From Proteromonas lacertae (lineage: Eukaryota), in NCBI GenBank assembly GCA_002245135.1, contig NGBS01001218.1, positions 1 to 37,816 of the forward strand: a DNA stretch of 37,816 nucleotides, in the 5' to 3' direction. Position 1 is the stretch's first letter. Each line of letters begins with the position of its first letter. The translations under genes and the position numbers were made by a program. Shown piece after piece: positions 1 to 31,707 of this stretch. A model generated the notes under the pieces. That model had not been told where the DNA came from. It made no database searches and was given only the letters and a program-made list of their open reading frames with translations.

Positions 1-2877
1 TTACTTTTGTTGTCCTTACTGTTGCTCGGGAACAACTTCCTTCCGGCAGTTCCTTACTCATCAAAGTTATCCCTGCCAGAAGCTTATCAAGTACCGTATC
101 AAGAGAGAGTTCCCTGACTCAAACGATTATGAGAAGAGCCATTGCTTCTTTAAGCACTACAAGAACATGCAATACATCCCATTGTAATCTACTACGATAC
201 AGAGGTCTATTTCAAGAAGGTATCCCACGTTGATGCAGATGGTAATGTCTTAAACGAAAGCAAGACTGAGGAGTCCAAGAAGTCCTTCACGTATTATATA
301 GTTACCATATCCTTGTGTGGAGTAGAGTTGATGACTTCCCTTCAAGGTGCATTGAAGGCAAGAAGACAAGTCCCGATCAGAACTTAGAAGAAGAGCTAGT
401 GAGTCAGTTCCTATTGATCGGAGAGTTGATTGAGGACTATTATCGAGAGATCAATGATAAGCCAAAGGTGATGAGAGTAACTAAGGATGATCAGGCAGCT
501 TTTAATGAAGCAACTGACTGTGCCTTCTGCTGTGAGTTGTTTACCAAGGAGAACTATAAGGTAAGACATCATGATCACTTCACCAGTAAGTACATCGCAG
601 CCTTATGCAATTCCTGTAACACGCTTGCCAGATTGCTTATATGAGAATCCGGTGATAGCCCACAATGCTAAGAACTACGATCAGGCATTCATCCTACGAG
701 AGTTAGCTAAGAGATGCCAAGTAGATGTGATACCAAAGTCCGATGAGAAGTTCCTTAGCATATCAACCTTACGATTGTCCTTCATTGATAGCTACTGCTT
801 CATGTCCTCTAGCTTAGAGTCTCTTACAGAGTGCTTACATCGTCAGGCAGTCCAGTCCGGGGACTTCAAGAAGTACTTTGCCCTGGTGTTCTACGTGATG
901 AACCAGATCAAGGGATATGATGAAGAGATGATCAAGACTTACCTCATGCAGAAGAACTACTTCCCTTATGAGTATTGTGATGACTTAGCCAAGTACGATG
1001 ACCAGAGTTACCACCACAAGAAGCTTTCTACTCAGAGCTCAATATGAAAGGAATCAATGAGGAGGAGTACAACTTTGCCTGTGAAGTGTTTAAGAAGTTC
1101 AAGTGTCAGTCCTTAGGTGATTACAACATGCTTTACTTAGCCGTCGATGTTGGCATCCTAGCAAGTGTCTTTGAGAACTTCCGTAATGTCATCCTCGGAG
1201 GGTTCCAGTTAGATCCAGCCTGGTACATCTCTGGTCCTAGTTTAACATGGGATGCATTCCTCCAGCATGAACACATCAGCATCCCCTTGATCTTCGAGGA
1301 AGACATCTATGACTTCTTCATAGCTGGCCTTTACGGAGGTATCTCATCTATGGGAAGTGAAAAGTATAGCACTAGCAACAACAAGTATCAGAACAACTAC
1401 GATCCAGCGGAGCCTTCTACTTATATCATGTACAATGACTACAATAGCTTATACCCATCCACGATGTCCTCCAGCAGTTACCGTGCTGAGATTTCAAGTT
1501 CATTGCCTGGACCGATGAAATAATTCAAGAGATCCTCTCGAAGCCTTATTACGATGACATGTCTATGAAGGAGTTCAAGGAGCCAGGTAAAGGATACTTC
1601 CTCGAAGTCGATATCGAGTGCCCGAGAGAGCTTCATGATAAGTTCAAGGAGTATCCTTTGTTCCCAGAACGAAACACAATCGCTTACGATCAGCTATCAC
1701 CGACTCAGCAGGCATTAGCTCAAGAGTATGGATTGGTGCTAACAACAGAGGATGGTAAGATGGCCATGAAGGTAAAGACTGAGAAGTTGATCTGCGATCT
1801 CACCCCTAAGAAGAATTACGTAATCCATTACCAGGCACTTAAGTATGCAGTTGAACGAGGTTATAAGATACAAGGTGTCCATCGTGTGTTGGAGTTCACC
1901 GAAGAACCTCTGATGAAGACCTTTGTGGATGATATGATCCGATACCGAGTAGATGCAAAGAAGAGCAATCGTACTGCCGATAGTGATACTTATAAGCTAT
2001 TGTTGAACTCCATCTATGGTAAGAGCTGTGAGCGTAAGGAACGACGATCCAGCATTAAGATAGCCTGCTCCGAGAAGACCTTTAAAAAGTACTCTAGCAG
2101 CAACTGGTTCGATACCTTCAAGAACTTATATGAAGAAGATCCAGATCTCCGATTATGCTATTTCAATAAGTCCGCCTGCTTCATTGACATGCCTATCTTC
2201 CTCGGTACATCAATCTTATGCTTATCGAAGTTGAAGATGCAAAGGTTCTGGTATGATGTTCTCTATCCCTTGTATGGATCCTCCTTGAAGTTGCTTATGA
2301 CTGATACCGACTCCTTGCTTTATAAGTGTCAGACTGAAGACATCTATGAGATATTATGGAGCATAAGCAGTTCATGAGGATGATGGACACTGGAAATCTC
2401 AACGTTGACATCTTAAGGGATAGAGGAATCGTCTATGACAATTACAAGGACACTGGCAAGTTGAACTTATTGAAATGTGAAGAGAACAAGAATGGTAAGC
2501 TTTATACAATCACTCAGTTCGTCGGGATTAAACCAAAGATGTATGCTTACGAGAAGAGTGAAGCTTCTTCCGTCTACGTGGAATGTGATAGCCGTGCAAA
2601 GGGACTCAATAAAGCCTTAAGAGAACAGAAGAACTTTTACGTCTACTTCAAGACTCTCTTCAACATGCTACCCATGGAAGATATGAATTGTAAGACCAGG
2701 AACTTCCGTGTCCTCGATCAGCACATCTACACCGTAGAGACCACCAAGAGAGTCTTCACTCCCTTTGATGATAAGAGGTACTTTATCGATCACTTTAGAA
2801 CATTGCCTTATGGGCACTACTCAATACTACCGAAGGATCAAGAGGATGATGATGATGATTTCAATGAGTTGTGGTGA
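1..2877 (+). pseudogene. polB: Protein-primed family B DNA polymerase (Polinton/adintovirus type) with inserted endonuclease VII/HNH-like Zn domain; split by several frameshifts; 5' part lies outside the window
   Basis: Collinear motifs across consecutive frames: ExoI PIVIYYDTE (~178-204), CAFC..HHDH..CNSCN, ExoII AHNAKNYD, FIDSYCFMSSSL, KNYFPYEY, ExoIII YLAVDV, motif A DYNSLYPSTM, motif B KLLLNSIYGK, motif C TDTDS, KPKMY, C-terminal DDKRY..TLPYGHY. Confidence 0.95.
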
Positions 2878-3029
2878 GATCAGTAACACGCATAAGCTCA
2901 TAGCTTTTACTATCAACGTGTGTTTAGTGTACTTGTAAAGTCACTGGAGTAAGAATCATCGGAGATAGCTAGTTGGTCTTTTCCTTATCATTCAAAGAGC
3001 TACTTACAATCACCCGCAATTACTTATCA

Positions 3030-3308
3030 ATGGAAGCCATCGGTAACAACTTACTCCAGACCGTAGATTGCCCAAGTGATAACAACTACCCGAAGTTACC
3101 ATCAGAGAATGAAAGGCTAGTGTTAGAGATGTGTATGAACAGGGCCAAGCAGATCTATCATTCCCGGGTCAGTGGAGAAGTACGTATACTCTACGATGAA
3201 GCAATCTCTCGTTATTGTAAAGACGAGATCATCAGTAGTAGCTTCGGAAAGGCTTACAACCTCTTGGACACTTGCGAGAAGATTAACATGGAGAGTTGTC
3301 TTGGATAA
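3030..3308 (+). CDS. Hypothetical element-encoded protein; degenerate coding-like sequence continues to ~3660
   Basis: ATG at 3030 within ORF 2973..3308; same GC-richer composition as polB; no recognisable motif. Confidence 0.4.
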   Translation: MEAIGNNLLQTVDCPSDNNYPKLPSENERLVLEMCMNRAKQIYHSRVSGEVRILYDEAISRYCKDEIISSSFGKAYNLLDTCEKINMESCLG

Positions 3309-4041
3309 GATGCATTGATAAGAGACTTAAGGCATCGACTCAATGACCTGGAGTTGGAGTATGCAATGGATCGATTACAGATAGATGAAGAAGTTGATCT
3401 CAAGTGTCACGAGGTACTCATCTTACCATAACAAGAACTTCCTTGGAGTTGCCATTGCATCGGTAACTAGCTTATAAACATAACCCAGGTACTTTTCTTA
3501 CTTATCGATGTAGTCTTTGGTGAGTTGCTTAGCAATCATTTATTTTATTCCTTGGAGATAACATTATAAGCAAAGAAGATGAAGACGATTTATATCCTTG
3601 GAAGGGAAGTCACTCAAGATGATGGTCAGAAGATCCTTTATATTGATGATCACAAATAAAAGTAATACTGAGTTTTCTTTTGACTGTAAGCATCTTCTAT
3701 TATCATTACCTGTAATAGCATATAATTTCCTCCAAAATCTATACCAATAGTATATGAATTATCAATATCCTACATAAAATATAAATAGCATTTAAAAGCT
3801 TGTTAGGTTTGAAATTAAATCCTATTTTTTTATTTATAGAAAACAATTATGGACTATTTATGAATTATAATATTTAATAACTCATTAATAGCTGTTGTCA
3901 TGCTATTAATACTATTATTTATACTCTTCAAAGTTTCTCTAGTTTCGTTGTCTTTTTCTATTTGTTCTTAAATTTTTTCCTCAATAATATCGATTTTTAT
4001 TCTCATATTATTTTTTTCTGTTTCATTTGCATATTAAAAAG

Positions 4042-6499: not shown

Positions 6500-6720
6500 C
6501 TAGAGTGTCCTATTTCTTTTAGTAGGAATTAACAGAGTTGACTTTTGCGAGACTTTCATCGATTGCATCGATGAAGGCCCCGTAAAGTCAACTCTGAATC
6601 TAGAAAGGGATAGACTCCTAGAAAACTCGTTAAAACTCGTTAAGCTGCCTACGGGATTCCTCCTACGGGATCTTCTTCCCTATGAGATGATGAATCCCGT
6701 TTCAAACTAAAGGTGTGGAC
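6500..6720. repeat. Imperfect palindrome plus adjacent sequence; diverged inverted copy of the 21.9-22.2 kb terminus
   Basis: CAGAGTTGACTTT..CATCGATTGCATCGATG..AAAGTCAACTCTG (6533-6596), followed by AATCTAGAAAGGGATAGACTCCTAGAAAACTCGTTA and CCTACGGGATTCCTCC, all matching the reverse complement of ~21965-22123. Confidence 0.9.
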
Positions 6721-11925: not shown

Positions 11926-11932
11926 TATTATT

Positions 11933-12864
11933 TTATAAATACTTCCATTTACTATGATTAACTTTTCTGCTTCTATTTACATAGTAAGTAAAAGATTTAG
12001 GTATATGCAATGGATTTATATACCAATCAGAATGCATAACTGAATAAGGAGGAAGTGATATAAACATACTTCCATTAAATCTTTTAAAAATATTATTGCT
12101 TCTCCTTACTTGGAATATTGTGTCAACTGTAGCTTCTACCAATGAGTAGAATCTATTTTTCCAAAATATTTCGAAATGTGTTTTTGATACTATTTTATTT
12201 TGATCTTTAAAATGGTAATCTACAAGAGGGTAATAATTTGGTAAATTACTAACAACCATTGATGGACCTATTACATCTATCCCTTTACAATTATTAAGAA
12301 TATATATAAAATAATCCAATATATCTAGGGGAGTATATAACAAACACATATCTGGATCAGTAACAATATAGTATTTGCAAGAATGAATTTCAGTAATATT
12401 TTTAATTATATAAGGCAATTCATTATCTGCCATTTTCATCCAATCCAATGTTTTTAATTCTATATACTTTATCTTATTATTCCTAACTAAATTATGTAAA
12501 TATTTTTGAGTAGGAGCATATGTTGTAAAATGATCTAAAACTTACAAATCCAAGTTATATTCCTTTTTGAATAAAAATAGACTTTTCATTAAGACTTTTA
12601 ACGAATATAACCTATCTTTAGTTAAAATAAAAACAGGAATATATGATTTATATCTAAATTGCATATTTATAAAATTACATTTTAGTTTAGTGTATGTATT
12701 TCTATTGTGATTAAATAAATTATATTCCACTTCTTCATTATCTGAATGATCATTATTAATTTTCTTTTTATTATATAAATAATTAAACAAATTAAATAAA
12801 AGGCACATAAACACACAATTATAAAAGTCTTAATAATTAACATGTTTACATTCTTATAAAACAT
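11933..12864 (-). pseudogene. GT2/GT-A-like glycosyltransferase split over three ORFs
   Basis: Anchor (12682..12864), IPVFILTKDRLYSLKVLMKSL first beta-alpha unit (12542..12814), YYIVTDPDM DxD and VDTIF (11933..12448). Confidence 0.7.
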
Positions 12865-12868
12865 TCAA

Positions 12869-13894
12869 TTAATTATGTAAACTACAAGTTGTATTTAACT
12901 TATATGATGTGTTTATATAGTTTCTTTGTTTTATGAAGTGCAAAAAGGCAATTTCAGCTATTCTGAGTGAATGAATCATAAATGTAGTGTTTATATTGTA
13001 ATGGACTTTAGGAATATATTTATATGCTGCATATTTAAAAGATTCAAAACAGTCAAAAAAAGAAAAGTTTGCTTTTCTTGATAAAAGCCCAAATAACATA
13101 TCTTCTTCAAAGCTACATTTTATATTATATAGTTTTTTATCTATGTTACTAAGTAATTGATTTATTGATTTAGCTAAAAATATATATGACATTCCACTGG
13201 GATTTTTTTTTTTGTTATTATTTAAATTCCATATCTTACCAAGTACAAATGATATATTATGCTTCATTATTTTATTTATAGCTTTTTCTACTAACTCAAT
13301 ATTTAAATAAGTGTCAGTATCTTGTTTGATTATTATATCATAAAAATACTGATAATCTTTAACCCACATCAGAAAGTTATATGTTAACATACATAATTTA
13401 AAATAATCACAATAAAAATTAAACAATACAATATCTTTATACTTTTTCATTTCTTTATATAGTTGTTTATTGATGGTATTATTATTATGTAAACCAATAA
13501 AAAATAGTAGCTGTATATTATTATATGAATTGTATATTTTTCTAAATACATATCTGTGATAAAATAAAGATATATGACAATGAAGCGCTATTAGAATTTT
13601 TGACTTTTTTATTTTAAAAGAATGATTGTAAGTTGTTCTATTATGATAATAAATTAACGCACTATCTGTATTAATAATTTTTCTTTTAACATTATTATTA
13701 ATATATGTATATTTTCTACTGCATTTTATTGGAGCATTATCAAAACAACAAGCATTAATTAAAGATATTTCACTCATAAGCTTCATATCATCTGACAAAA
13801 CTAAATTGTTTATGAAGGTAATACATATATTATATGATATTATTATTATCATAATTACTAAATATAATAAGAAGTTTCTTTTTAATAATAACAT
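12869..13894 (-). CDS. GT31-like glycosyltransferase
   Basis: Type II anchor; LLFFIG, EMKKYKDIV..DYFKL, IIKQDTDTYLN, SGMSYIF, EEDMLFG. Confidence 0.85.
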   Translation of the reverse strand: MLLLKRNFLLYLVIMIIIISYNICITFINNLVLSDDMKLMSEISLINACCFDNAPIKCSRKYTYINNNVKRKIINTDSALIYYHNRTTYNHSFKIKKSKILIALHCHISLFYHRYVFRKIYNSYNNIQLLFFIGLHNNNTINKQLYKEMKKYKDIVLFNFYCDYFKLCMLTYNFLMWVKDYQYFYDIIIKQDTDTYLNIELVEKAINKIMKHNISFVLGKIWNLNNNKKKNPSGMSYIFLAKSINQLLSNIDKKLYNIKCSFEEDMLFGLLSRKANFSFFDCFESFKYAAYKYIPKVHYNINTTFMIHSLRIAEIAFLHFIKQRNYINTSYKLNTTCSLHN

Positions 13895-13936
13895 AAATTA
13901 CACATAAAAATTAGAAAAATTGAGAATGAAATTTAG

Positions 13937-14865
13937 ATGAATATAGTAAATATAATAATTACTCATTTTTTATTTACTATATTTATGGTTTATTTATTTA
14001 CTACAAAAAGCAACAATACCACAATAATTATCTATCTTGTATTTCCTAGTAATGGTAAAGGAGGTCCTAAATCTTTATCAACTTATATTCATAAAGCAGT
14101 AATAAAGTGGAATGAAGATAACAAACTATCAAAAACAACAAAACTATTTTATAAAGAATCAGTTAAAATAGATTTTATAAAAAGAATCACAAATAAGCAA
14201 AACACATTTGTATGGTTACAAACAGCTAGCTTTATTCATTTGTATAATAATCCTTCATATAATGGTATTTTTTCAAGAATAATATATGGTCCAAATGTTA
14301 CTCCATTAAATTGGTATAATTCAATAAATAATACATATGAAAAGTATATTTGGATATGCTTTACATTCTGTTAGAGTGAAAAAGCAAATAATGAAGAACA
14401 ATAAATGTAATTCATTTGATTATAAATACTTATATTTAAATATATGTAAAATATGCTGATAAAAATAAAAGAAATGAAGAAAATAGTTTAATAGAATATT
14501 TGAAACAGAAATATAGAATTGAAATTATTAAGTATGGTAATCATTCAAGAGAATCTATATTATCACTAGCTAATGAATCAAAATTTATTATTTATTTCTC
14601 ATTCTATGATACAGGTACACTTTCATTATTAGAAATGAAATCAATGGGAGCATGGCCGATATCTCATCAAAAAGAATTTATTGAGAAGGGATATGGAAGC
14701 TATGTTAAAGAATTGGATAGCGATATTTATAAATCATTTATAATGTTAGATAATATATATAGAACAATTTTTTCCCCTATATTGCTTGTAAATAATGTTT
14801 ATAATCGTTTAAATTGTTTAAAATTATTACAAAAATCAGTAAAATATATTAGAACTATGATATAG
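13937..14865 (+). pseudogene. GT-B fold (GT4-like) glycosyltransferase, interrupted
   Basis: Anchor, GKGGP, IIYGPN in ORF 13937..14374; FSFYDTGTLSLLEMKSMGAWP resembles the GT4 ExFGxxxxEAxxxGxP motif in ORF 14500..14865. Confidence 0.6.
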
Positions 14866-14872
14866 AAAAATT

Positions 14873-15728
14873 ATGACTTTATAAGAATATAGAAGGTATT
14901 ATTTCTAAATTCTTATTTTTTCTTATTTCTTATTATATATTAAACAGATTTATATACAATAATAAACGAAACAAATGTTCTCATTCAAACAAAGTATCAA
15001 TTAATCTACATGATTTGTTTATTTATAATTATTCAATTACATCCAATTATAATTCGTTTTCTGCAGTTATATTTTTTATAGTATCTTCTTCTCTGCATAT
15101 TAACAAAAGAAATATAATAAAGAAAACATGGGTAAATTCATGCTTACATGTTTCATGCAAATATTATTTTGTTATAGCTACTAAAGGATGTTATGAAAAT
15201 ATTAAAAAAGAAAATAATTATGATATTATTGGTATAGACATTATTGATAGTTATTATAATTTAACTATATTAACTAGTAACATATACAGATACTATATAT
15301 TATTTAACTTAAAATCAGATTTTATAATTAAAATAGATGATGATATATTCCCTAATATTCCTCTCATCTATTTGTACTCTTATTTATATATAAATAAGAA
15401 TATGATTTCCGGATACTATTATCCAAGCATGAAGGTAAATAGAAATATTAATTCTTCAGTATATTTACCTAAATCTTTGTACAAATTTAGTACATTTCCT
15501 AATTTTGTTGCTGGTGGGTTTGTTATTATTAATTCTAATTATATTATTCCCTTGTTTAAAGAATTAATGAAAGAAAGAAGAATATTATATAGAGAAGATA
15601 TGCATATGGCTATAATATATAATAAATTAAATATTAACTTTCAAAAAATTAATAAATATTATCATAGAAAACAGATTAAAATAATGTTAAGCAATAAAGT
15701 AAAAGATATATGTTGGCATGGATTTTAG
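14873..15728 (+). CDS. GT31 glycosyltransferase; start region appears damaged, so 5' coordinate is approximate
   Basis: RNIIKKTW, DII..DSYYNLT, FIIKIDDDIFPN, FPNFVAGGFVII, REDMHM, WHG; hydrophobic coding-like segment upstream of 15015. Confidence 0.85.
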
Positions 15729-15807
15729 TGTTTAAAAATTAATGAATTATCAATATTCATAGACTTAAATTATTATTTAATTTAGTAGTAGATTTAAAAT
15801 CATAGAT

Positions 15808-16145
15808 CTATATTATTAAACATTTTTTAAGATAATCAGTCAAAGTATCAGAAAAAGACAATGTCAAATGATTAGCGTCTTTATAAACAATAATTCCGTT
15901 TATTACAAATTGAATCTTTTTCTTTTTGTAAATATATTTATTCATATTGCAATATTTTACTTTTTGATTATATATAAATGGTATTAAAGTAATAGATGAA
16001 TTAATTCCATCTATTGCAAAACATTCTCTTTTTTCTGTAACAGAGTAAATACAATTTAAAGGATTGATATGTAATAAAGGAATATCATTTATTATAAATA
16101 TATGAGATGTATAATTAGATAATATATATAATAATAGTAAATAAA
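15808..16145 (-). pseudogene. C-terminal SGNH-domain fragment of an O-acyltransferase/esterase, 5'-truncated
   Basis: IVYKDANHLT (DxxH) near the C-terminus with preceding Cys residues; N-terminus replaced by unrelated GC-richer sequence at ~16146. Confidence 0.6.
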
Positions 16146-16240
16146 GGTTCTGGCACACCGAGCCGTATGACTCGGGCTCCTGGCACACCAAACCAAACTT
16201 TTTAAAAATACGTGACCTATGTCATATTAGGTCATATTTT
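16146..16240. mobile_element. Putative orphan transposon end
   Basis: CTGGCACACC twice, flanking a CCGAG..CTCGG inverted repeat; TGACCTA..TAGGTCA inverted repeat; abuts the truncated SGNH gene; no partner end seen. Confidence 0.4.
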
Positions 16241-16565
16241 ATTTTTGCATTTTCTAGAATATTCTAATATAATTTTATAGAATTTTCTTTCTATTTTTTT
16301 AAATCTAATTTACATATATTAATAAACAAACACCATTTCAATTAATGATATTAATTTAATTAATTATTTATTATATTTTAATTTTAATTATCAATCTTCT
16401 TCATCCACATCTACTACGTCAAGTTTGTTTTGTTTTAAAAGCATAATTAGCTGCTTTTTTTCATATTCTTCTTTTTCTCTTTCTTCTTTTCTTCTTTTAA
16501 CTTCTTCTTCATTATTTACTTTAGTAAAGAATCTGATTTTTTTGTTTTATTCTCTTCTTCACTTT

Positions 16566-17203
16566 TGTTGTGCGCCGTTTGTCATAGTTGGCCATTTGTC
16601 TATCAGACACTTTTAAAACTAATTAAATGTATATTCTTACTTGTCTTGATGAAAAATTGTTACTTTTATACTTACTTTGTTATATAACCTACCTCTGCAG
16701 AATACTTTTTTGTTAATATAAATAGTTTTAATATTTGCGCCGTTTGTTTTCTAGAAATTTTTAAAGCAAACTAAATGTATATTTAGTTAATATAGACTAA
16801 AATATATTAGATGAAATGATTAGAATATAATAATTATTAAATCTTTCTATATAAAAAAAGAAATGTAAAAAATAGGCTTGAGTGAGGCTTGATTCTATAT
16901 TTTCTTTTATTATTTTAAATGCTTTATGATCAACATTAAGTTGTTCTAAACATTTCAGCTAATATATTTTAGTCTATATTAACTAAATATGTATTTAGTT
17001 TGATTCATAAATTTCTAGAAAACAAACGGCGCAAATATTAAAACTATTTATATTAACAAAAAAGTATTCTGCAGAGGTAGGTCATATAACAAAGTAAGTA
17101 TAAAAGTAACAATTTTTCATCAAGACAAGTAAGAATATACATTTAGTTAGTTTTAAAAGTGTCTGATAGACAAATGGCCAACTATGACAAACGGCGCACA
17201 ACA
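16566..17203. mobile_element. Foldback/MITE element with ~250-bp TIRs and TGT..ACA termini
   Basis: TGTTGTGCGCCGTTTGTCATAGTTGGCC.. (16566 to ~16820) is the near-perfect reverse complement of ~16950-17203; spacer of ~130 bp; no TSD evident. Confidence 0.88.
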
Positions 17204-17649
17204 CATATGATATATTTCCTATTGAATAAAAAACATAGTTGTTTAAAACAAAGTATTTGTTAAGTTGATTGAAATGAATCATTCTTAATGTATACCATGT
17301 AGTTATATTAATTATTATAAATTTATATAGTATATGAATTTAGATTATTAAAATATACACTAATACCCTGAATTATATTAAAATATTTATGTAATATAAG
17401 ATTTGAATTCGATAACATTCCAAGAATATATTCATAAATCCTGCAAAAAATAATATAATAAGAAAATGAAACGTTATTTGATAAGTTAGCTGAAAATATA
17501 ACTATACTCGCTATGCAAGTAATATATAGTATATTCCTGTAATATAAAAAACAAGATAGGAGAATTGGATATATTACATATATTTGCTGCTGAAGAAATA
17601 TATACCAAAAATGTAAAACATACGATGGATTAAATTTTATAACTTTGCT

Positions 17650-17889
17650 AATATAGACTAAAATACATTAGCTGAAATGATTAGAATATAATAATGTTGA
17701 TCATAAGACATTTAAAATGAAAAAAGAAAATATAGAATCAAGCCTCACTCAAGCCTATTTTTTACATATCTTTTTTTATATAGAAAGATTTAATAATTCT
17801 TACATTCTAATCATTTCAGCTAATGTATTTATATTAACAAAAAAGTGTCTGGTAGACAAATGGCCAACTATGACAAACGACGCACTACA
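17650..17889. repeat. Internally deleted copy of the same MITE family
   Basis: Contains the inverted spacer (TAGAATCAAGCCTCACTCAAGCCTA) and the right end GACAAATGGCCAACTATGACAAACGACGCACTACA. Confidence 0.85.
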
Positions 17890-17899
17890 AGCTGGAAGC

Positions 17900-19600
17900 T
17901 TTTAAGGAATGTCATCAGTTCTCTTTTCGTTGCGTTGGTTATTCTAATCCAGTAGGTTTATCCTGATATGTAGTTCCACATTGTTAATAAGGTCTCATTC
18001 ATCGTTTATACTACATCCTTAATAGTCAACAACCTCACTGATAAAGCTGTTTACTTGATTCACAACCAGGTTGTTGAGGTTGTTGACTTTGCCTTGGACG
18101 TCTATCACTCTTGTCTGGCAGTCTCCTATCTTTCAATGTACTTCATTGACCTTGGTTAATTGAGCTGGTGAATAGAAGCTATTGACATTCCCGGTATTGA
18201 ATCCATCGATCTTGGTTCTGATAGCAGCTGCATTGTTGATAGCTGTATCGATCAGTCCTTTACGGGTATTGTTAAAGAAGCCATCCAAGTTCCTTCGGAG
18301 GTTGTCTTCTTCAGTCCTTCTAGCCACGCCGCAGGTTGCATTCACATCATTGATACTTAGAGAATGCACCTTGATCTTGATTGCATCGGTGTTGGCTAAG
18401 TCAGTGAGCTTCGTAAGGCTCTTATCATCCACCGTAGTGATGTACTTGATCATATCGTAGACGTTAACATCCCCGATGTTGAGACTCTCGCATAATGAAT
18501 TCAACAAGGTATTTAGACTATCCAATTTCTCATCCTCTGATCCCTTCAATTGATCGATTGAAGTGTTAGTGGATTCAAGGATATTGCTAACATCCTCCAT
18601 GCTCTTATACAACTCTGGTAATTGCTTCTCCGTGTACTGCTTAAGTTCATTGCTGCAAGTAGCGATATTGCTCAAGGATGTGATAGTCGTATCTCCGAAG
18701 TCTTCAGGGATCTTGTTGTTAAGCAAAGTATATAGATACATCTCTTATATCATAACCTGCCCTGGCCTTCAACAACTTTACCTACCTCCCGAGAAGTACC
18801 TTGCTTACTCTATCCACACGATGAACTTCAACTCCTTACGATTGCTAGCTGATGGATGTAGATGACTTTATCGGCGTTATGATGATTCTATTCCGATAAG
18901 ACTTATACGATGGTCAGAAGCCTCCTTTGAAGTTCACCTACTCTCCTTAGACTTCCAAGGATCTACTAATCGTCTCTCTATTCCAGATGCTCCTTTACCT
19001 TCATGGACTTCTCGGACGTGACAGACATTACCTATGATATGCTTCGTCTTCACTCTCGGTTCTAGCAGTCTACGATCACTGCTCTGGTAAGTACCTTAAT
19101 CATCTCTTGGCATCTCTTGAAGAGCTACTTGTGATCCTTACCGATACCTATCTCTTGAGCTGATGGTAACCCTTTCAAGTGACAACTCCTTCTAGTTCTT
19201 GTTCATCGTAGTTGTTGATCCTCGGTAATGTCCTAGCCTTCAATCAGATCACTACTAGTCTCAGTAATGTTGTTGTTGAAGTCAGTGGCTTTATCTATCT
19301 ATTGAGAAGCACCTTACGATCGATAGCTAATAGACTCTTGGACATCTATGCCGGTGTTGTTACTTGAGGAGTATACGATATCTCGGGTCTACTGACTTAC
19401 TTACTTACTTACTTGTGATGATTCCTAGCATCACAAGTAAGGACTACTCAGGTAAAGGATTATCGATCACACTTCCTATAGTCTGTATTGCAACTCTTTA
19501 TGTACCTACAACTACTTCACGATCTTCAGAGTCATTGATCCAAGGTTGCTATCTCGGGGTTGTTGATGTCCTTGCTATTATTGTCATCTCCGAGACTCCT
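17900..19600 (-). pseudogene. Heavily decayed large virus-like gene(s), possibly fibre/coiled-coil; longest open piece is 18133..18741
   Basis: GC-richer composition like polB; 202-aa helical heptad-like fragment; many stops, frameshifts and an (ACTT)n expansion. Confidence 0.45.
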
Positions 19601-19708
19601 TTAGTTTATTGAATTGATTACTTACCATGTCCTTGGGTTGATCATCTCCGTAAGGCTCCTTGAATTGATTATTTCTATTGTCCTCGACTATCCCAAGGTA
19701 ACATTTTG

Positions 19709-20171
19709 CTAAGTACCGACAGAGTTGTTAGAGTTGAAGATGCGTCTATTGCTGAGGTTATTGATGATTACTTTGCTGAGCGAGGAGTAGTAGTAAGTTC
19801 TATCTCTCGGGAGTTCATTGAGTTGTACTATCTGAAGCGTCTTGAGGGTACGTCTTCTCCTTGATAATAACCTATTCTGTTCTCGGCAGTCCCGACATGA
19901 CGATGAGTAATAACCTTCCTTAGGCATTTGAAATTCCTCCAAGGGCTTATCATGCTTACAAGTACGGCATACTACTTCCTTTTACTGTAGCTTCTCCATT
20001 CACTTTAAGTTGTTTCCATTGAACGGACTGCTTCCTATAATATCGCTCCATTGCCTGGTTGTTCTTGGCCCGGCATGATGGACATTGCTTATAACATCCT
20101 TTACCTCTATCCTTTGGGGTTGGGATCATAGGCTTCTTATACTTACTACAAATGGCTTCGGTATCATCCAT
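19709..20171 (-). pseudogene. Tandem zinc-ribbon protein with one frameshift
   Basis: Joining the frames at ~19980 gives CSKY..CPSCR then CRTCKHDKPLEEF..SSSCRDCR (CxxC..K...F..CxxC), a type common in DNA-virus proteins. Confidence 0.65.
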
Positions 20172-20229
20172 TGAATAACTACTTCCTTGTCGGCGTTGAA
20201 GCTTATCCAACTTCCCTGTGTTAGTCGAT

Positions 20230-21680
20230 CAGAGCTATCTTGGTTGCTCCCGTCCTTGTCATCATGGTGATCTCCTCGGTGAGCTCCTGGACAATGTAAT
20301 TAAACTTTACCTAGATGAGTTATAAAGACAATGAAGCATACCTAAGCAATGATCCCGTGGATGTTCCTTGGCTTTGTAATGAAGTCTCTTGATAGAAGTT
20401 CCATGGGAGGTTCCTTCTTGAGTTACAACTCAAGGAGGAACATCCCTTCCTTGCTAGGATAGATGATAGTTGAATGTTACCTAGTTGATTAACAAGGACG
20501 ATAAGACTTACCTTTATAAGGCTTCCGAGATTGATAACAATGATCTTCAAGGACCCTTGAGAAATTGAAGCCTACTGAAGTGATAACTAAGTTGTTGATT
20601 GTTTAAAGAGGTTCTGATAATGGTCCTTTAACTGAATGAAGATCTCCTGGTCTTGTTGTTGATCAAAGTGTAGTACCTCCCCTGATACAATCACCATTCA
20701 TGACTACGTCCGAGAGAACTCCTCCTTACGGCTATGCCTTCAGGAGGACTTCTCCCGTCCTTGTCATCATGGTGATCTCCTCGGTGAGCTCCTGGACAAT
20801 GTAATTAAACTTTACCTAGATGAGTTATAAAGACAATGAAGCATACCTTCAGAAGCATCCTGAGATTGCTCTTATCTATTCTCAAGTATCCTTGTAAGTA
20901 TTAATGATAAACTGCTAAGCTTAAATCATTTTCATTAGTTTACCTAGTTGAATTATAAAGCCATTGTAACTTACCTCTAGGAAGCTCCCGAGAATGCTTA
21001 CGATGATCTTCAAGGCCTTGAGAAAATCCAGTACTAACCAGAACTTCCAGTTGTAAAGTCACTGATTAATAGAAGTACCATTAAGGCACCTTCCCAGATA
21101 CGTCCAGCCGTGCATGACTACGTCAGGAATCTCCCATGTTGGGAGATTCCTTCCTTGCCAACACGGCTGTTCTTCTCGGGAAGGTCGTGGATGAACTTAT
21201 CTAGGAGAGTTATAAGGATGATAAACTTACCCTTTAGAAACAAACTGAGATTGCTCTTATTGATTCTCAAGTATCCTTGTAAGTATTAATGATAAACTGC
21301 TAAGCTTAAATCATTTTCATTAGTTTACCTAGTTGAATTATAAAGCCATTGTAACTTACCTCTAGGAAGCTCCCGAGAATGCTTACGATGATCTTCAAGG
21401 CCTTGAGAAAATCCAGTACTAACCAGAACCTCCAGTTGTAAAGTCACTGATTAATAGAAGTACCATTAAGGCACCTTCCCAGATGCGTCCAGCCGTGCAT
21501 GACTACGTCAGGAATCTCCCATGTTGGGAGATTCCTTCCTTGCCAACACGGCTGTTCTTCTCGGGAAGGTCTTGGATGAACTTACCTAGGAGAGTTATAA
21601 GGATGATAAAACATACCTTCAGAAGCCTTCCGAGATTGCTAATCATTATCTTCAAGGGCCTTGAGAAATCCACAACTAGC
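20230..21680. repeat. Modular subterminal repeat array: 7 copies of a TTA(C/T)CTAG-initiated unit, plus a 385-bp tandem duplication
   Basis: Unit starts at 20307, 20477, 20812, 20940, 21197, 21325, 21582; ~20860-21244 is repeated at ~21245-21629; a ~95-bp near-exact repeat at ~20248 and ~20753. Confidence 0.9.
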
Positions 21681-21990
21681 TAGAACCTCCCGTAGTTACC
21701 ATTTGGTAACTTGTTACCAATTGTAAACTCCCGGTTCCACGATTGGTTTCCACGGTTCAATTAAAAGCCCTTACAAGATCACCAGCGTAGCAAGGAGAGT
21801 CAAGAGCGTGATTAGATTCATCACCTCGAGGTAACCAACACTTCTAGATAGCTTCCAGGAGTACCCGTAGGAGATCGTCTCATAGATATGTATAGGTAGG
21901 TATAGAAATAGCTTAGAGGAGTTCCCGTAGGGAAATAGACCCCGTTGAGAAGTAGACCCTGTTGGGAGGAATCCCGTAGGAACCTTACGT

Positions 21991-22190
21991 AAACGGGACT
22001 ATGGTACAATGTGCCAGAGTTCTAACGAGTGTTCTAGGAGTCCGTCCCCTTCTAGATTCAGAGTTGACCTTTACGGGAGCTTCATCGATGCAATCGATGC
22101 AGCTCCCTTAAAAGTCAACTCTGAATCTAGAAGGGGACGGACCCCTAGAACACTCGTTAGAACTCTGTGAAAGTGTCCCAGGGTCCCATT
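21991..22190. repeat. ~200-bp imperfect palindrome (hairpin-terminus-like) at the boundary of GC-richer and AT-rich DNA
   Basis: Core 22015-22167: CAGAGTTCTAACGAGTGTTCTAGGAGTCCGTCCCCTTCTAGATTCAGAGTTGAC pairs with GTCAACTCTGAATCTAGAAGGGGACGGACCCCTAGAACACTCGTTAGAACTCTG; centre CATCGATGCAATCGATG. Confidence 0.95.
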
Positions 22191-22387
22191 TATATACTAT
22201 ATAATAATATAATATAATATATATATATATAGAATTTACATTTTAGAAATTAGAATAATAATTATAATACTAATTGAATATACATTTTTTTTTGAGTTTT
22301 TCTTGAAGATCAGTTGATATAGGAATGACTTCCACTGCCGATGAATTAGTCAATCTTATTTCGTTATCTTTATTACTATGTTAAATA

Positions 22388-25770: not shown

Positions 25771-28173
25771 CAGGGTTGTATTTATCGGTTACCGACGGAA
25801 ATAGGTCAAAACCTATAGGTTTTGTCTTGACATTCAGTCGGTCAAGCCTTACAAGCCGTATATTATAAAATCTATTTTAATTCATTATATACTAATTTTC
25901 CTTTTATAAAAACTATCTTATAATATATTTTAATACTTGATTCATATATTTTCAATTCAATTAAATAATTTTTAACTTTTTATAAAGAATTACAATTTAA
26001 TACTCAACACTAATTAGGTATTTTATATAATTATGTTCTTATTTATTTCTACTAATCATCAGTTTCATTTGTAATCTATCACATGATAAATTTGATTTGG
26101 ATAAGTTACTTATTTGTCCAGCCTCGGAAAATATTCTTTCTGGCTCTGAAGATGTTGCTAGACTGTTTAAACTGTTATTGGCAAGTATGTATACCCTAGG
26201 AAACTTGGACTTTAATGATAGCCAGATATTTCCAATGGTTTCAGAGGTGCTGTAATGAATATCATATTGCAAATATTCTTGTACTTCATTTGGCATAATT
26301 AATCTCTTTATATTTACTACTTTTTCAAGATATTTATCTAATGTAGTTTCTTCTATTGAATATGTTTCTTCGATTTCAGTAATTATATAAATCAATGAAT
26401 TAATTAATATACTTTTAGATTTTTCAAATTCTGAATCGCTAAACCCTAGAGTACTATGAAGAATGAATGATTTTACTCTAGGGTCTAACATGCAGCACAA
26501 CAGAGTCAAATCACTATTATTACATATATTATTTAGTCTTTTTATCATATTAATTTTGATACTCTCAGCATATTCCTGTATCTTTGTTGGATAACCTGTT
26601 TTGAATTCAAATAAAGTCTGTTTATAATGTAAAACAGCCATTCCCATAGTCATGTCTCTATCTTCCAATATCTTAGTAAGTTTGTATAATGGTTCGAGTA
26701 TATCACATAGTTTATCTAGAATAACATACGCTATATTGATAGGGGAAGGGATAAATTTTAGCAACTCATCTTCTTTTGGTTTTATGGCATTAACTATACC
26801 TATAAGTTTTTCTTGGTTATACTGTTTAAGATTGTTTTTGTATTCATTTGTTTTTTCTTCATAATATTGATGCAATATTTCTTTACTTTCATAAAATTTC
26901 TTTAACATAATATATAAACTATTCCACCGAGTTGTCGTTAAAGTAGGTATACATAAATTGAGCTTATTTTTGTTTACGACGGTTCTTAGTTGTTTACCTA
27001 GATCTACAAATACTTTTACATTAATATCTATAACTCCTCCTTTAACCATAGCCCCAGTAATAGCAAGCTGAAGGCTATGGTTCATACATCTTACATTTGT
27101 TACACATGCATCTCTTATACCTTTCACCATATTCTTTCCATTGTCTGAAGTAACTGAAGTTATTTCAAATCCATACATTTCTTTTATGAAATATATTGTG
27201 TATGTAATTGTGTCTGCCTTTTCATTAACAACTTCTACAACACCAAGTGTTATTGTAACTAATTCAAACAAATCGTTGAAATAACATCCACTAATAGCTA
27301 CTAGTTCACTGGAATGCTCCGATTTCCACCCATCTATAGCAAGTGCGACTTCTTTACCATTTAAATCTTTCTTTAATTTATCCAATAAAAAATATAAAAA
27401 TAATATACAACAATTTCTATGTTTCTTTTAATTAAAAAGTCATTATATACTACTCTTCTTGATAGAACACAGTAGTGCTTATATGATCGTAAGTGATGAA
27501 ATCAAATAAGCTTTGTTCTATCTCATCATTGTTTATCTTTACATCTTCATCTACACAATTATGTGAACTAATTTGGTGAAGTTTGACAGCCTTTCCATTT
27601 TTCACGTTACAAGCGTTTCGAACACCACAAAATATGCAAATGCATTTATCAAGGCTTTTTATCTTTAACATATTATACCAACAGTTTTTGTAAAAGTTAA
27701 AATTAAGATGTTTAAGCATATTTGCCTCTTTTAAGGCAATAACTTCATGAGCCGCTCCAATTGGTAAAACTATACTCCTAGAATATATAATGATAAATTA
27801 TATTAGATAAATTTATGATAATTTTAAGAAATGATTAATGTCAAGCTAAAAGTTTGCCATTTTTTCTTTCAAATTTTTATAATCATTCTATACTTTATAT
27901 TACATATATAACACAATAGAATAACTCATTGGTAAGGTTAGATTCAATTATGAAGAAAGAAAAAAGCGCATCGACCGACGGTTAATTCGGTATTTTATAG
28001 AATGATATATAGAGCTTGAATTCAATATGTACAGTTAGATAATATTATTAATATCACATGTTTAGGAGGAGGTCAGCTAATAGTTACTACAGCCTGGTGT
28101 CGGTCAACATTTGTTTATTGACCTACGACCGATCGGTTTTCTCCTTCGGTCATGACCGATTTATACAACCCTG
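25771..28173 (-). mobile_element. Second hAT transposon, defective, no TSD
   Basis: TIRs CAGGGTTGTATTTATCGGT (25771-25789) and reverse complement CAGGGTTGTATAAATCGGT (28155-28173), 17/19; flanks CTAAAAAT and ATTATGAG differ; subterminal ACCGAC/GTCGGT motifs. Confidence 0.93.
26039..27788 (-). pseudogene. hAT transposase, broken between 27385 and 27450; start aligns to an ATA codon
   Basis: CIFC..H...H BED-like part; IDGW, TSDNGKN, RCMNHSLQL, TRWNS, SSEPERIFS; homologous along its length to 4417..6135. Confidence 0.92.
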
Positions 28174-28375: not shown

Positions 28376-28643
28376 AGGGGGCCAGAGCACAGTGTGCTCT
28401 AGCCCCCTATGGTTTTTTGATTCAAAAAAATGGCCCCATATTGTTTTTTCACCATTAGAAACGTTTTTAATGCATAATAAATACATCAATCGATTTCTCT
28501 ATTTATGCTGGGCTCATATATGCCCTTAGTTTGACTTTCTGATCATAATCGAAATTTAATTTTCTTAAAAAAATTCAAAAAACAATGATAGATAGGATGG
28601 CTACCATACTGTGTGATATGACAACATATGGTGACCATCCTAT
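28376..28643. repeat. Non-coding cluster of inverted repeats
   Basis: AGGGGGCCAGAGCACA-G-TGTGCTCTAGCCCCCT (28376-28408); TTTTTTGATTCAAAAAA; ATAGGATGG..CCATA..TATGG..CCATCCTAT (28592-28643). Confidence 0.75.
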
Positions 28644-28955
28644 GTAATAAAAAAAAATGGAGTTCAAGTCAAATCTCGAAACGCATCTATTTTTCTAAGT
28701 GTTATAGTTAGAGCTAGGATTAGTTTGAATTCATAATAAATATATCAATTGATTTGTTTTCTTTTTCTCTATCTTTCTATGTATTTATTTTTTATGTTTG
28801 ACTATAATTGAAATATAATTTAACAAAAATAATTTTTGGCGTATAATTAGCTACGCATATATACATACACTTATAATATCCCCAAATAAACACTATTTTA
28901 ATTATAAATAATATTTTAATTTTTTAATGAAATTGAAATAGAATTACTGACTTAA

Positions 28956-29366
28956 TTAGCAGTCAAATATATCTATTGGTATGGCATCATCATTGTCATC
29001 ATCAAATGCTTTTCTTCTTTTCTTTGTAGGTTCATTTGTTTGAATGATTTCATTGTCTTTCTTTTCTTCTTCTTCTTTTTCTTCTTGAAGGTGTTCTTGT
29101 TCTCTATCTTCATTATTTTTAATAGTTTCCTTAATAGTTTCGATTAATGATTTCATTTTCACAATAACATCTTCTTCAACTGTTTGTTTTTCAGCTGGCT
29201 CTTCAACTGGTTCTACAACTGGTTTATCATTTGTTAATTCAACATCATCTTCTATTTCACTCTCTGTTTCAATCTCTTTTACTAAAGCTGCTACAACATT
29301 TCCCCATTCGTCATCATATTCCATATTATAACCTGTTATCATATCTCCATCCCCTAATTCTGTCAT
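28956..29366 (-). CDS. Acidic hypothetical viral protein with an NLS-like PTKKRRK
   Basis: 136-aa ORF, E/D-rich. Confidence 0.6.
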   Translation of the reverse strand: MTELGDGDMITGYNMEYDDEWGNVVAALVKEIETESEIEDDVELTNDKPVVEPVEEPAEKQTVEEDVIVKMKSLIETIKETIKNNEDREQEHLQEEKEEEEKKDNEIIQTNEPTKKRRKAFDDDNDDAIPIDIFDC

Positions 29367-29449
29367 TGTATCAGATGTTAATGTTTTTAATGAATCATAT
29401 ATGTAGTCAATTTTACGATCTATCTATATATTGATAAAACTTTTATAAA

Positions 29450-29782
29450 TTATACAATTGACTTAGGTTTTGAATTTTTATACTCCAAACAATAAATTAA
29501 TTCATTTTTAAAGTCTTTATAATAATCCACTCTAAACCTTGCATCTCTAATCCAGATGGATTTAAATCTATCCACCAGACTTTGTATATTAGGTATTAAT
29601 CTAGTGCCTTTAAAACTATATAACATAATATGATAAATATACTGGTATCTACTTAAATATCTGAAGTTTTTAGCTACATCTTGTAAATTAACCAACAAAA
29701 TGTCATATTCAGCTTCATCATGTACTACTTTTACTTTTACTCTGTAAACTACTTCTTGTTTTAAAATAATTTTGTTATTCAT
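29450..29782 (-). CDS. Hypothetical viral protein
   Basis: 110-aa ATG-started ORF with globular composition. Confidence 0.55.
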   Translation of the reverse strand: MNNKIILKQEVVYRVKVKVVHDEAEYDILLVNLQDVAKNFRYLSRYQYIYHIMLYSFKGTRLIPNIQSLVDRFKSIWIRDARFRVDYYKDFKNELIYCLEYKNSKPKSIV

Positions 29783-30189
29783 GATGATATTTCAAAAATA
29801 ATTAATAATATAACTGCCAAACTCAAACCAGTATTCAAACTTGTATATTTTTTAATATTTATATACAGGGTTAGCACACAATCTAACTATAATTTATATA
29901 TACTTACTAGGGTATATACCCATCTCAATTATATCAATATCTTATTTCAGGCAATAATTTAAATCATCTTTGATTATGAAACATATATGAAATCTAACTA
30001 TATCAATCGATTGCTTATGATATGCCATATAATAAGAAACACATCAGATTATTCATTATGTCAATGGATCGTGAGATATTATTTTTTTTAACAAACCTCA
30101 AACATTTGTATTACTAAACAAACAATAACTTTATTGATTAGACCCATAAAAATTTAATAATATATATAATAGCAAAAAATACAAAGAAT

Positions 30190-30690
30190 ATGCCTGACCA
30201 TTTAACATATAATATGCTTAGACAACCTAACGGTGAATATGCTTTTTACATTCATAGATATAGAGACAATAGAGCACATAGATGGGTTATTCAATTTCCA
30301 ATTAAAACAATGAAAATATTAAAAAGAAATAAAGTAAAGGTGTTTATATGTGGTTCACTCAGAACTAATAGAAATGATCCAGAAGTACTAGGTGATTATA
30401 GATATCATGGTGATCAATTAATGATAAACCTCAAAACCTATGGGTATGACAGAAGAGCTTCAATATTAGTAATGAATAGAAAATTAAGAAATGGAGAACA
30501 TGAGTATGCAGATGGTGATTGTATTCCTCAAAAATTTAAAAAATATGTTTTTCATCATATGAGTTATCAATGGAATGGAGGGAATTTTTATCACATACAT
30601 CCAGTTGATAGAAATGTTGCTGATGGAATTAGTAGTAGTAGTAGTAGTGATAGTAGTAGTAGTAGTAGTAGTAGTAGCGACTCTGATTAA
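30190..30690 (+). CDS. Hypothetical basic/His-rich viral protein with a poly-Ser tail
   Basis: 166-aa ORF; tail encoded by (AGT)n; TGTTTGTT at 30720-30727 downstream. Confidence 0.7.
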   Translation: MPDHLTYNMLRQPNGEYAFYIHRYRDNRAHRWVIQFPIKTMKILKRNKVKVFICGSLRTNRNDPEVLGDYRYHGDQLMINLKTYGYDRRASILVMNRKLRNGEHEYADGDCIPQKFKKYVFHHMSYQWNGGNFYHIHPVDRNVADGISSSSSSDSSSSSSSSSDSD

Positions 30691-30794
30691 ATACTTAAAA
30701 ATTCTATTATTATTATATATGTTTGTTTTTGTTTGATAAACATACTATTAATAGTTACTATATTTTAAATAATATCAATTATAAAAATCACAAC

Positions 30795-31166
30795 ATGTCT
30801 TATTATGGAGGATGGCCAAAAGGGTTTAAAATTAGTAAAGACTGGAATACATATATTCCTAAATCAGTTAATAGGAGTAAATGGAGAAAGAGCTATGATT
30901 TGTATAGAGACAAAGTAAAGAATGCACTACAAAACAAAACAAAAGTTAAATTACAATATAGACAATTAATGAAAATGTATGAACGATTATTAGCTGCTAA
31001 TCCACCTAAACAAAGAGCAAGACCAAAAGGAAGTAAAGATAGAGCAAAACGTAAACCAAGACGAGCCGGGCCACGAGCCGCGCCAAAGAATGATCCACAT
31101 CGTATAGTTGTGCATAATGGCAGGCATTATCAGTATGGTATTCCAGTTCCTAATATGGATAATTAA
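30795..31166 (+). CDS. Small basic protein, candidate virion core/DNA-condensing protein
   Basis: ATG at 30795; K/R-rich, RARPKGSKDRAKRKPRR is AT-hook-like; TGTTTGTT at 31215-31222 downstream. Confidence 0.6.
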   Translation: MSYYGGWPKGFKISKDWNTYIPKSVNRSKWRKSYDLYRDKVKNALQNKTKVKLQYRQLMKMYERLLAANPPKQRARPKGSKDRAKRKPRRAGPRAAPKNDPHRIVVHNGRHYQYGIPVPNMDN

Positions 31167-31280
31167 AGTAATTCTTTATATATATATATATTTTTTTTTA
31201 TGTAATGTTATGTGTGTTTGTTTTTTTGGTGTTTGGTACTGCTATATCCGGCGGCCACTTGACAACTTGAATTGTAATAT

Positions 31281-31351
31281 AAGTTACAACTGGCGCCAGT
31301 TGTAACTTGAATTGTGATGTATCCTACAACTTGGGCCAGTTGTAAGATACA
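31281..31351. promoter_or_regulatory. Tandem related palindromes between convergent genes
   Basis: Perfect 28-bp AAGTTACAACTGGCGCCAGTTGTAACTT (31281-31308); imperfect 34-bp TGTATCCTACAACTTGGGCCAGTTGTAAGATACA (31318-31351); function inferred only. Confidence 0.6.
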
Positions 31352-31402
31352 AGTTTAACCAAAAGAAACATAATATAATATAATATAAAAAATAAAAAAA
31401 AA

Positions 31403-31639
31403 TTAAATAGTCATTTTCCTTTGTTTAGTGATTTCAATAAGAGACTGAATATCCTTAAGTGTCTTATCATGTTCTAATCCTTTATTCATCATGGCATCTA
31501 TATTATTTCTAAGTTCTTCTATGTCTGTATTGTTTGGAATACAATTGTGTGCCTTTAAGTATTTGAAAAGAGCCAAAGCTATCATATACAATACAAATAC
31601 GAGAACTGAAAGCAAAACAGTTATTACATCAAAGTCCAT
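31403..31639 (-). CDS. Small single-pass membrane protein with coiled coil
   Basis: VITVLLSVLVFVLYMIALALF followed by a heptad-like region. Confidence 0.65.
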   Translation of the reverse strand: MDFDVITVLLSVLVFVLYMIALALFKYLKAHNCIPNNTDIEELRNNIDAMMNKGLEHDKTLKDIQSLIEITKQRKMTI

Positions 31640-31707
31640 GTGTGTTTATGAGAATCTTATATAAGAAAAACAAAATTAATCAAAGTAATGTATTTATTAT
31701 CAATAAA

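What the first reader, a model, noticed from the sequence alone, without database searches (positions are those of the whole stretch)
21991..22190. ~200-bp imperfect palindrome resembling an unfolded hairpin telomere or concatemer junction
Seen: ~54-bp near-perfect arms, a mismatched inner stem and an asymmetric centre (CATCGATGCAATCGATG here, the complementary CATCGATTGCATCGATG at 6.56 kb), exactly where GC-richer DNA gives way to AT-rich host DNA. Known: canonical Polintons end in simple TIRs with short AG/AGT-type tips, whereas incompletely paired hairpins next to tandem repeats typify poxvirus/asfarvirus telomeres and parvovirus ends. Inference: a Polinton-like lineage using hairpin ends or cruciform resolution.
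Basis: partly seen in the sequence, partly recalled or inferred. Interest (0 to 1): 0.75.

Follow-up and report, generated by a model that had tools for sequence, protein, structure and literature searches.

The report
Palindromic end of a Polinton-like fragment
A 203-base mirror-image DNA sequence forms the very edge of a decayed, likely virus-like jumping element in a likely protist genome, and an older inverted copy nearby shows it is an inherited end structure, but nothing here shows poxvirus-style flip-flop hairpin ends, and shorter ends of this kind were described in a 2026 preprint.

Summary
The palindrome is real: arms 21990-22089 and 22093-22192, 88% complementary, 3-nt loop, folding z -20.8. 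It ends within 5 bp of the point where a GC-richer, A-tract-poor block (about 17.9-22.19 kb) meets AT-rich DNA. That block shares its composition with a broken protein-primed polymerase (pPolB) gene at 1-2.9 kb; this is the only link to Polintons. The 6.56-kb copy is a diverged, inverted copy of the same end, carrying the same interior CCCGTAG motifs and the same loop orientation relative to them, so it is not a flip/flop isomer. Two of the four core mismatches are paired in that copy, so they look like decay or base-calling error, not conserved bulges. Host-like DNA lies outside, so this is not a concatemer junction, and it is not a free MITE. Best reading: a fold-back-derived palindromic tip of a likely protein-primed Polinton-like element (0.5); self-priming hairpin end is the main rival (0.22). 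Terminal palindromes on endogenous virophages and Polinton-like viruses are already in a 2026 preprint (52 nt, mostly without pPolB); this one is about four times longer. Only two copies were available; no genome, reads or close relatives.

The parts
21990..22192 (.). 203-bp imperfect palindrome: inner arm 21990-22089, loop GCA 22090-22092, outer arm 22093-22192; 74-bp core with 4 mismatches, outer 26 bp with 8
21689..21979 (+). Four CCCGTAG motifs (21689, 21864, 21924, 21973) leading into the palindrome; related CCCGT[A/T] words inside both the inner arm and its edge; candidate protein-binding repeats (inferred)
   Evidence: 6 matches in the window, 0.44 expected, all beside the two palindromes
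20247..21696 (.). Subterminal repeat region: 385-bp tandem (2.2 copies, 93%), 128/257-bp sub-units, 97-bp exact duplicate, small hairpins at 20405-20446, 21125-21151 and its copy near 21510
17891..22187 (-). Block B: GC 41-47%, AAAA/TTTT at 0.17 of expectation; decayed minus-strand frames; left side cut at a foldback-MITE end (17890), left edge uncertain (17.9-18.05 kb)
19709..19981 (-). 90-aa frame with a CxxC..CxxC zinc finger matching the zinc-finger part of phage HNH / endonuclease VII families; no catalytic part seen in the following frames
   Evidence: (best E 4e-6)
18133..18741 (-). 202-aa ORF of unknown function; only repeat-protein hits
22193..22235 (.). AT-only/TA-repeat flank; a single ACT at 22196-22198 could be a 5'-AGT tip (weak)
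6533..6699 (+). Diverged, inverted, internally deleted copy of the same end: 31-nt outer arm, loop TGC 6564-6566, inner arm (8 differences in 73 from the 22-kb inner arm), two CCCGTAG motifs
1..3638 (+). Block A: broken Polinton-type pPolB (PF03175, PF02945-like insert; 6 frame changes against P0005), same composition as block B; runs off the window

Best explanation
The palindrome is the outermost stretch of a decayed mobile block, likely a protein-primed Polinton-like element, and likely arose by fold-back copying of the element's end, after which it was inherited as part of the end. Shown: position at the compositional edge, a second diverged copy carrying the same interior motifs, near-perfect core with a 3-nt loop. 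Inferred: block B belongs to the family that encodes the pPolB of block A; the ancestral core was almost perfectly paired; on a displaced single strand the end would fold into a long hairpin next to the CCCGTAG repeats and serve as part of the end/origin signal, while initiation would still be by terminal protein rather than by a covalently closed hairpin.
For: Edge: change point 22187 with a model trained only on block A. Family link: trinucleotide-bias r 0.92 between A and B coding part, 0.25-0.42 between B coding part and host/hAT/C regions; A4/T4 ratios 0.19 and 0.17 against about 1.0 elsewhere. Polymerase: PF03175; closest homolog P0005, 51%, is a 1293-aa pPolB collinear with block A; polinton pPolBs carry a terminal-protein domain (PMC11161782 passages). 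Inheritance: 6.5-kb copy 86.9% to the minus strand, 82.2% to the plus; its interior side aligns to B's subterminal DNA, 0 of 1000 shuffles as good. Against closed or priming hairpin: outer 26 bp have 8 mismatches and the 6 nt beyond are mostly unpaired; no isomer in 2 copies; no HUH, SF3 helicase, resolvase or tyrosine recombinase among 36 frames scanned and 14 ORFs scanned.
Against: No gene of block B is tied to Polintons by homology; A and B are 14 kb apart and need not be one element or share ends. No (AGT)2 or (AG)3 end repeat; only one ACT, and its homology to the 6.5-kb copy's flank is not significant (p 0.14-0.31). None of 25 distant pPolB loci (25-33% identity) has a palindrome scoring above 22 (64 here), so nothing shows that such hairpins go with this polymerase. 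In the Halocafeteria preprint terminal palindromes go preferentially with non-pPolB replicases. Most of the element is missing, so absent enzymes prove little. No TSD or second end found.
Confidence: 0.5

Rival explanations
1. Functional hairpin tip: the free genome ends in a fold-back hairpin that primes replication (parvovirus-like hairpin transfer), and integration leaves it unfolded, as proposed for Halocafeteria virophages and PLV subtype 4.
For: Very stable fold, 3-nt loop, exact edge position; centre better kept than the outer end in both copies; repeated motifs beside it; published model (bioRxiv 10.64898/2026.07.28.741278 section 7).
Against: Same isomer in 2 of 2 copies (chance 0.5, so weak); poorly paired outer 26 bp; linked polymerase is of the protein-primed type; no nicking or resolving enzyme seen.
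Confidence: 0.22
2. Head-to-head fusion of two ordinary ends (circle or end-to-end junction): the true terminus is at the centre (5'-TGCATCGATG.., an integrase-type TG..CA end) and the palindrome is two 100-bp TIRs joined with 3 nt lost.
For: Left arm reads ..CATCGATGCA up to 22092; arm identity fading over the last 26 bp is how inner TIR borders often look (recalled).
Against: Beyond the outer arm lies host-like DNA, not element interior; the same 3-nt centre is in both diverged copies, so it would have to be inherited, not a fresh junction.
Confidence: 0.13
3. Block B is the end of some other element that merely shares composition with the pPolB block (satellite, non-autonomous or unrelated virus-like element) and the palindrome is its recognition site.
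For: No homology link between B and any Polinton gene; the 170-bp copy at 6.5 kb shows that short end-only derivatives exist.
Against: The shared A-tract depletion is strong and confined to A and B in this window.
Confidence: 0.08
4. Free-standing palindromic MITE inserted at the block edge by chance.
For: About 200 bp, fully inverted, TA on both sides; the window holds another foldback MITE.
Against: The tips are the least complementary part (8 of 26 mismatches against 4 of 74; Fisher p 0.002, bins chosen after seeing the data); the second copy lacks the tips and carries flanking interior DNA; composition continuous with block B.
Confidence: 0.05
5. Sequencing or assembly artefact (fold-back chimeric read).
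For: Frameshifts in several genes suggest an error-prone assembly or decay; inverted duplicates lower nanopore accuracy (PMC7229812 abstract), which could explain individual mismatches.
Against: A second copy, 11% diverged, has the same centre and loop.
Confidence: 0.02

Closest known systems
Terminal palindromes of endogenous virophages (subtypes 1, 2, 5, 6) and PLV subtype 4 of Halocafeteria seosinensis (bioRxiv 10.64898/2026.07.28.741278; passages and sections 7, 9 read)
   Same: Palindrome at the extreme end of an integrated virus-like element of a protist, next to host DNA; hairpin priming proposed, untested.
   Different: 52 nt there (subtype 5) against 203 nt here; shown there at both ends beside TSDs, here one end and one relic, no TSD; there preferentially with non-pPolB replicases, here compositionally tied to a pPolB block.
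Polintons/Mavericks (PMC8097293, 10.1101/2023.08.22.554363, PMC11161782; passages read)
   Same: pPolB of the PF03175 type with an endonuclease-like insert in block A; long repeat-rich end region.
   Different: No (AGT)2, (AG)3 or (AC)3A end motif, no TSD, no integrase, protease, ATPase or capsid gene within blocks A/B in the window; long terminal palindrome not mentioned in the passages read.
Poxvirus hairpin telomere / concatemer junction (PMC8956199 passages)
   Same: Imperfect inverted repeat next to tandem repeats.
   Different: 48% GC against 84-93% A+T; mismatches not conserved between copies; no flip/flop pair; genome DNA on one side only; no resolvase seen.
Blastocystis MELD virus (PMC8502044 passages)
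   Same: Adintovirus-like pPolB element in a likely similar host, with divergent virion proteins.

Membership tests
Polinton/Maverick | Protein-primed family B polymerase | tested here: inconclusive
   Present but broken in block A; tied to the palindrome's block only by composition.
Polinton/Maverick | Retroviral-like integrase | tested here: inconclusive
   None in 21 ORFs or 36 frames; block A runs off the window and block B is truncated.
Polinton/Maverick | Capsid, ATPase and protease genes in the same element | tested here: inconclusive
   A capsid-like gene and P-loop ATPase lie in block C, which has a different composition and is treated as a separate element.
Polinton/Maverick | TIRs at both ends with 5-8-bp TSD | not testable with these tools
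   Second end not identified; no genome held. The 6.5-kb copy is in TIR orientation but its outer flank does not align significantly.
Polinton/Maverick | Short repeated end motif such as (AGT)2 or (AG)3 | tested here: not met
   Only a single ACT at 22196-22198 in an AT-rich flank; the motifs come from vertebrate elements and the exact tip is unknown.
Poxvirus/asfarvirus hairpin telomere | Flip and flop isomers | tested here: inconclusive
   2 of 2 copies are the same isomer; too few to exclude.
Poxvirus/asfarvirus hairpin telomere | A+T-rich hairpin with conserved extra-helical bases | tested here: not met
   48% GC; 2 of 4 core mismatches paired in the other copy.
Poxvirus/asfarvirus hairpin telomere | Concatemer junction flanked by genome on both sides; Holliday-junction resolvase | tested here: not met
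   Outer flank host-like, log-likelihood -0.5 per base; only a zinc-finger fragment resembling endonuclease VII families.
Parvovirus-type rolling-hairpin end | HUH nickase with SF3 helicase | tested here: inconclusive
   None in scanned frames; element incomplete.
Protelomerase (telRL-type) target | Perfect, even-centred palindromic core (feature recalled, not from a call) | tested here: not met
   Odd centre with G/A mismatch around 22091 in both copies.
Halocafeteria-type terminal palindrome | Palindrome at the TIR extremity | tested here: met
   Ends within 5 bp of the compositional edge; TIR status inferred from the inverted second copy.
Halocafeteria-type terminal palindrome | Adjacent TSD and presence at both ends of complete elements | not testable with these tools
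   No complete element available.
MITE | Best-matched tips, moves without flanking DNA | tested here: not met
   Tips worst matched; second copy carries flank and lacks tips.

The most novel reading that the evidence does not exclude
A pPolB-encoding Polinton-like lineage of a gut-type protist has 200-bp hairpin tips that self-prime replication or are resolved as cruciforms, using CCCGTAG repeats as the origin, and leaves short end-only relics: a hybrid between adenovirus-like and parvo/pox-like end strategies in one integrating element.
Probability: 0.15. Interest if true: 0.75.

Novelty: new variant of a known kind. Interest (0 to 1): 0.38.

Why it matters
How integrated Polinton-like viruses start replication and regenerate their ends has not been shown by experiment in the papers read. 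A 200-bp terminal palindrome tied to a protein-primed polymerase would test whether hairpin ends are confined to non-pPolB elements, as the one preprint suggests, and genome-wide counting of loop orientation is a cheap, decisive read-out of hairpin transfer. As it stands it is one decayed end and one relic.

Tried and rejected
No whole genome held. Exact DNA patterns from the arm: 0 hits in metagenome contigs, 0 in viral contigs; phage blastn gave only 4 hits to the AT-rich flank; no sequencing run was listed (no evidence either way). Rfam: 0 matches. pPolB relatives with context: 0, 21 loci, 4 loci, all 25-33% identical; 2 of the 21 examined for TIRs show both (L005 746 bp, L012 277 bp; L022-L025 not examined for TIRs); translated comparison of the window with these 21 loci gave nothing for block B. 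Capsid relatives with context: 0. 202-aa ORF: 3 hits to repeat proteins, Atlas best 0.76, rejected as uninformative. Single-sequence fold of the window's capsid-like ORF failed (pLDDT 29); sequence search of PDB 0. Homology of the 6.5-kb copy's distal outer flank to the 22-kb tip: not significant in 4 of 4 tests, so a shared AGT tip was dropped as a claim. Idea that block A continues into the 6.5-kb copy across the hAT and MITE: the DNA left of the hAT is AT-rich and matches neither. The endonuclease-VII-like insert in pPolB as a cruciform resolvase: such inserts are common in polinton pPolBs and in 5 of 18 homologs listed, so it is not specific. My recollection of an HUH-fused nematode pPolB was wrong ('HUH' 0 occurrences). 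Earlier scan notes by place and sequence: none. Papers that added nothing (passages only): 10.1101/2024.03.23.586382, 10.1101/2022.05.25.493380, PMC12835684, 10.1101/2022.07.28.501842, 10.64898/2026.10.13.758929.

Full report
Observation. The palindrome is there: arms 21990-22089 and 22093-22192, 88% complementary, loop GCA at 22090-22092. It folds at -87.6 kcal/mol, z -20.8, 0 of 200 shuffles as stable; its score is 64 against at most 11 in 100 Markov shuffles of the block. Mismatches are uneven: 4 in the inner 74 pairs, 8 in the outer 26 (Fisher p 0.002, bins chosen after seeing the data). It is 48% GC.

Setting. Two blocks differ from the rest of the window: A (1-3638) and B (about 17.9-22.19 kb), GC 41-47%, with AAAA/TTTT at 0.19 and 0.17 of expectation against about 1.0 in the glycosyltransferase cluster and in block C. 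A third-order model trained on A alone scores B positive up to a change point at 22187, five bases from the palindrome's outer end; the next 100 bases score -0.5 per base. A holds a broken protein-primed polymerase (PF03175; PF02945-like insert; six frame changes against the 1293-aa homolog P0005). B holds decayed minus-strand frames: a zinc finger like that of phage HNH/endonuclease VII families (E 4e-6) and a 202-aa ORF without informative relatives. No B frame matched a Polinton gene (0 informative hits in 36 frames; none against 21 pPolB loci), so the A-B link is compositional only. Between the coding remains and the palindrome lie 385-bp tandem repeats, small hairpins and four CCCGTAG motifs; CCCGTAG occurs 6 times in the window (0.44 expected, 0 of 100 shuffles), 4 beside this palindrome and 2 beside the other copy. 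The host is likely an AT-rich protist; TGTTTGT follows 3 of 21 stop codons (0.008 expected per window), which resembles the gene-end motif described for Blastocystis (PMC12129017 passages), but none of the 8 glycan-cluster genes has it and the host is not established.

The 6.56-kb copy. It matches the minus strand of the 22-kb end at 86.9% and the plus strand at 82.2% over 107 columns, and its right side continues into B's subterminal motifs (score 71.5, 0 of 1000 shuffles). It is therefore the whole end turned round: read from the interior, both copies give GCA in the loop. The arm next to the interior agrees with the 22-kb inner arm at the three diagnostic sites (distances 9, 17, 52); inner-inner 8 differences in 73, outer-inner 11. 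At distances 9 and 17 three of four arms agree and only the 22-kb outer arm differs, so these two mismatches are private; distance 22 may be shared; distance 52 cannot be aligned on the outer arm. The ancestral core was thus likely almost perfect, and single mismatches may be decay or base-calling error in an inverted duplicate (PMC7229812 abstract). The copy lacks the 27 bases that form the poorly paired part of the inner arm, keeps only 31 nt of clear outer arm, and its more distal flank does not align significantly to the 22-kb tip (p 0.14-0.31). Two copies with one isomer is what chance gives half the time, so isomers elsewhere are not excluded.

Mechanism. Best supported (0.5): a palindromic tip made by fold-back copying of the end and then inherited, in a likely protein-primed element; on a displaced strand it would fold beside the CCCGTAG repeats as part of the end signal. 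Shown: position, inheritance, core symmetry. Inferred: family link, origin by fold-back, role, protein priming (polinton pPolBs carry a terminal-protein domain, PMC11161782 passages; that part of block A lies outside the window). Rival (0.22): self-priming hairpin; against it the poorly paired outer end and no nickase, helicase or resolvase seen, though most of the element is missing. Rival (0.13): two TG..CA-type ends fused at the centre; against it host-like DNA outside and an identical centre in both copies. Unrelated element (0.08), MITE (0.05) and artefact (0.02) fit worse. Against my reading: no repeated AGT/AG tip (vertebrate motifs, PMC8097293 passages), no TSD, and none of 25 distant pPolB loci (25-33% identity) has a palindrome scoring above 22; 2 of 21 examined show plain TIRs of 746 and 277 bp.

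Known systems. bioRxiv 10.64898/2026.07.28.741278 (passages, sections 7 and 9 read; figures and supplements not seen) reports palindromes within TIRs next to TSDs in four virophage subtypes and one PLV subtype of a stramenopile, 52 nt in subtype 5, preferentially with non-pPolB replicases, and proposes hairpin priming or accidental annealing. The concept is thus in print; the length and the pPolB link would be the variant. Poxvirus telomeres are 84-93% A+T, occur as flip and flop, and need a resolution site and resolvase (PMC8956199 passages); those features tested here were not met or were inconclusive. pPolB elements are known from Blastocystis datasets (PMC8502044 passages). PMC11296320 (passages) discusses PLV inverted repeats as origin and recombination substrate. 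Searches that found no description of a roughly 200-bp terminal palindrome on a pPolB element in their listings: (top 9-20 listings each; most not opened). Earlier scan notes, unchecked, describe 170- and 214-base hairpins at Polinton ends in other genomes, a lead that the feature recurs.

Limits. No genome, no DNA matches in public collections, no run listed. Everything on the end rests on two copies in one window. Verdict: real element end, known kind, longer variant; hairpin telomere not shown. Interest 0.38.

Noticed in passing
window 1-3638 and 17891-22192: Strong avoidance of A/T runs: AAAA/TTTT at 0.19 and 0.17 of expectation, AAA/TTT at 0.41, in a host where they occur at expectation. 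Unexplained; could reflect avoidance of a transcription-termination or polyadenylation signal, or of bent DNA.
   Followed up: partly
window 28376-37816: Second, AT-rich virus-like element: frameshifted ORF 33390-34821 with five 46-61% homologs whose low-confidence model (pLDDT 45) best matches Sputnik and mavirus double jelly-roll capsids (E 6e-8); split P-loop ATPase near 34896-35700; runs off the window.
   Followed up: partly
window 28376-28408: GC-rich 33-bp hairpin (15-bp stem with one mismatch, 3-nt loop) near the left edge of that second element, and a 58-bp weaker one at 28589-28646; could be another palindromic tip; boundary not determined.
   Followed up: no
window 31264-31345: Perfect 28-bp palindrome inside a 40-bp tandem duplication between convergent genes of the second element.
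   Followed up: no
window 16559-17210; 6296-6420; 17644-17890: Foldback MITE with 276-nt arms (94%) and two partial copies; one abuts the left end of block B, another lies about 110 bp left of the 6.5-kb palindrome copy.
   Followed up: partly
window 4043-6292: hAT transposon with intact 572-aa ORF (PF05699), TIRs and 8-bp TSD TTAAAAAG; a broken second hAT at about 25771-28173 without a matching TSD.
   Followed up: partly
window 6822-16500: Dense cluster of short AT-rich ORFs with N-terminal hydrophobic segments: two galactosyltransferases (PF01762), a methyltransferase (PF13578), DUF1647. It lies between the two inverted end copies; composition is host-like (r 0.91), so capture as cargo is not supported but not excluded.
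   Followed up: partly
L002 11572-11857; L003 5705-6067: Internal array of palindromic repeats in two related pPolB-encoding viral contigs.
   Followed up: no
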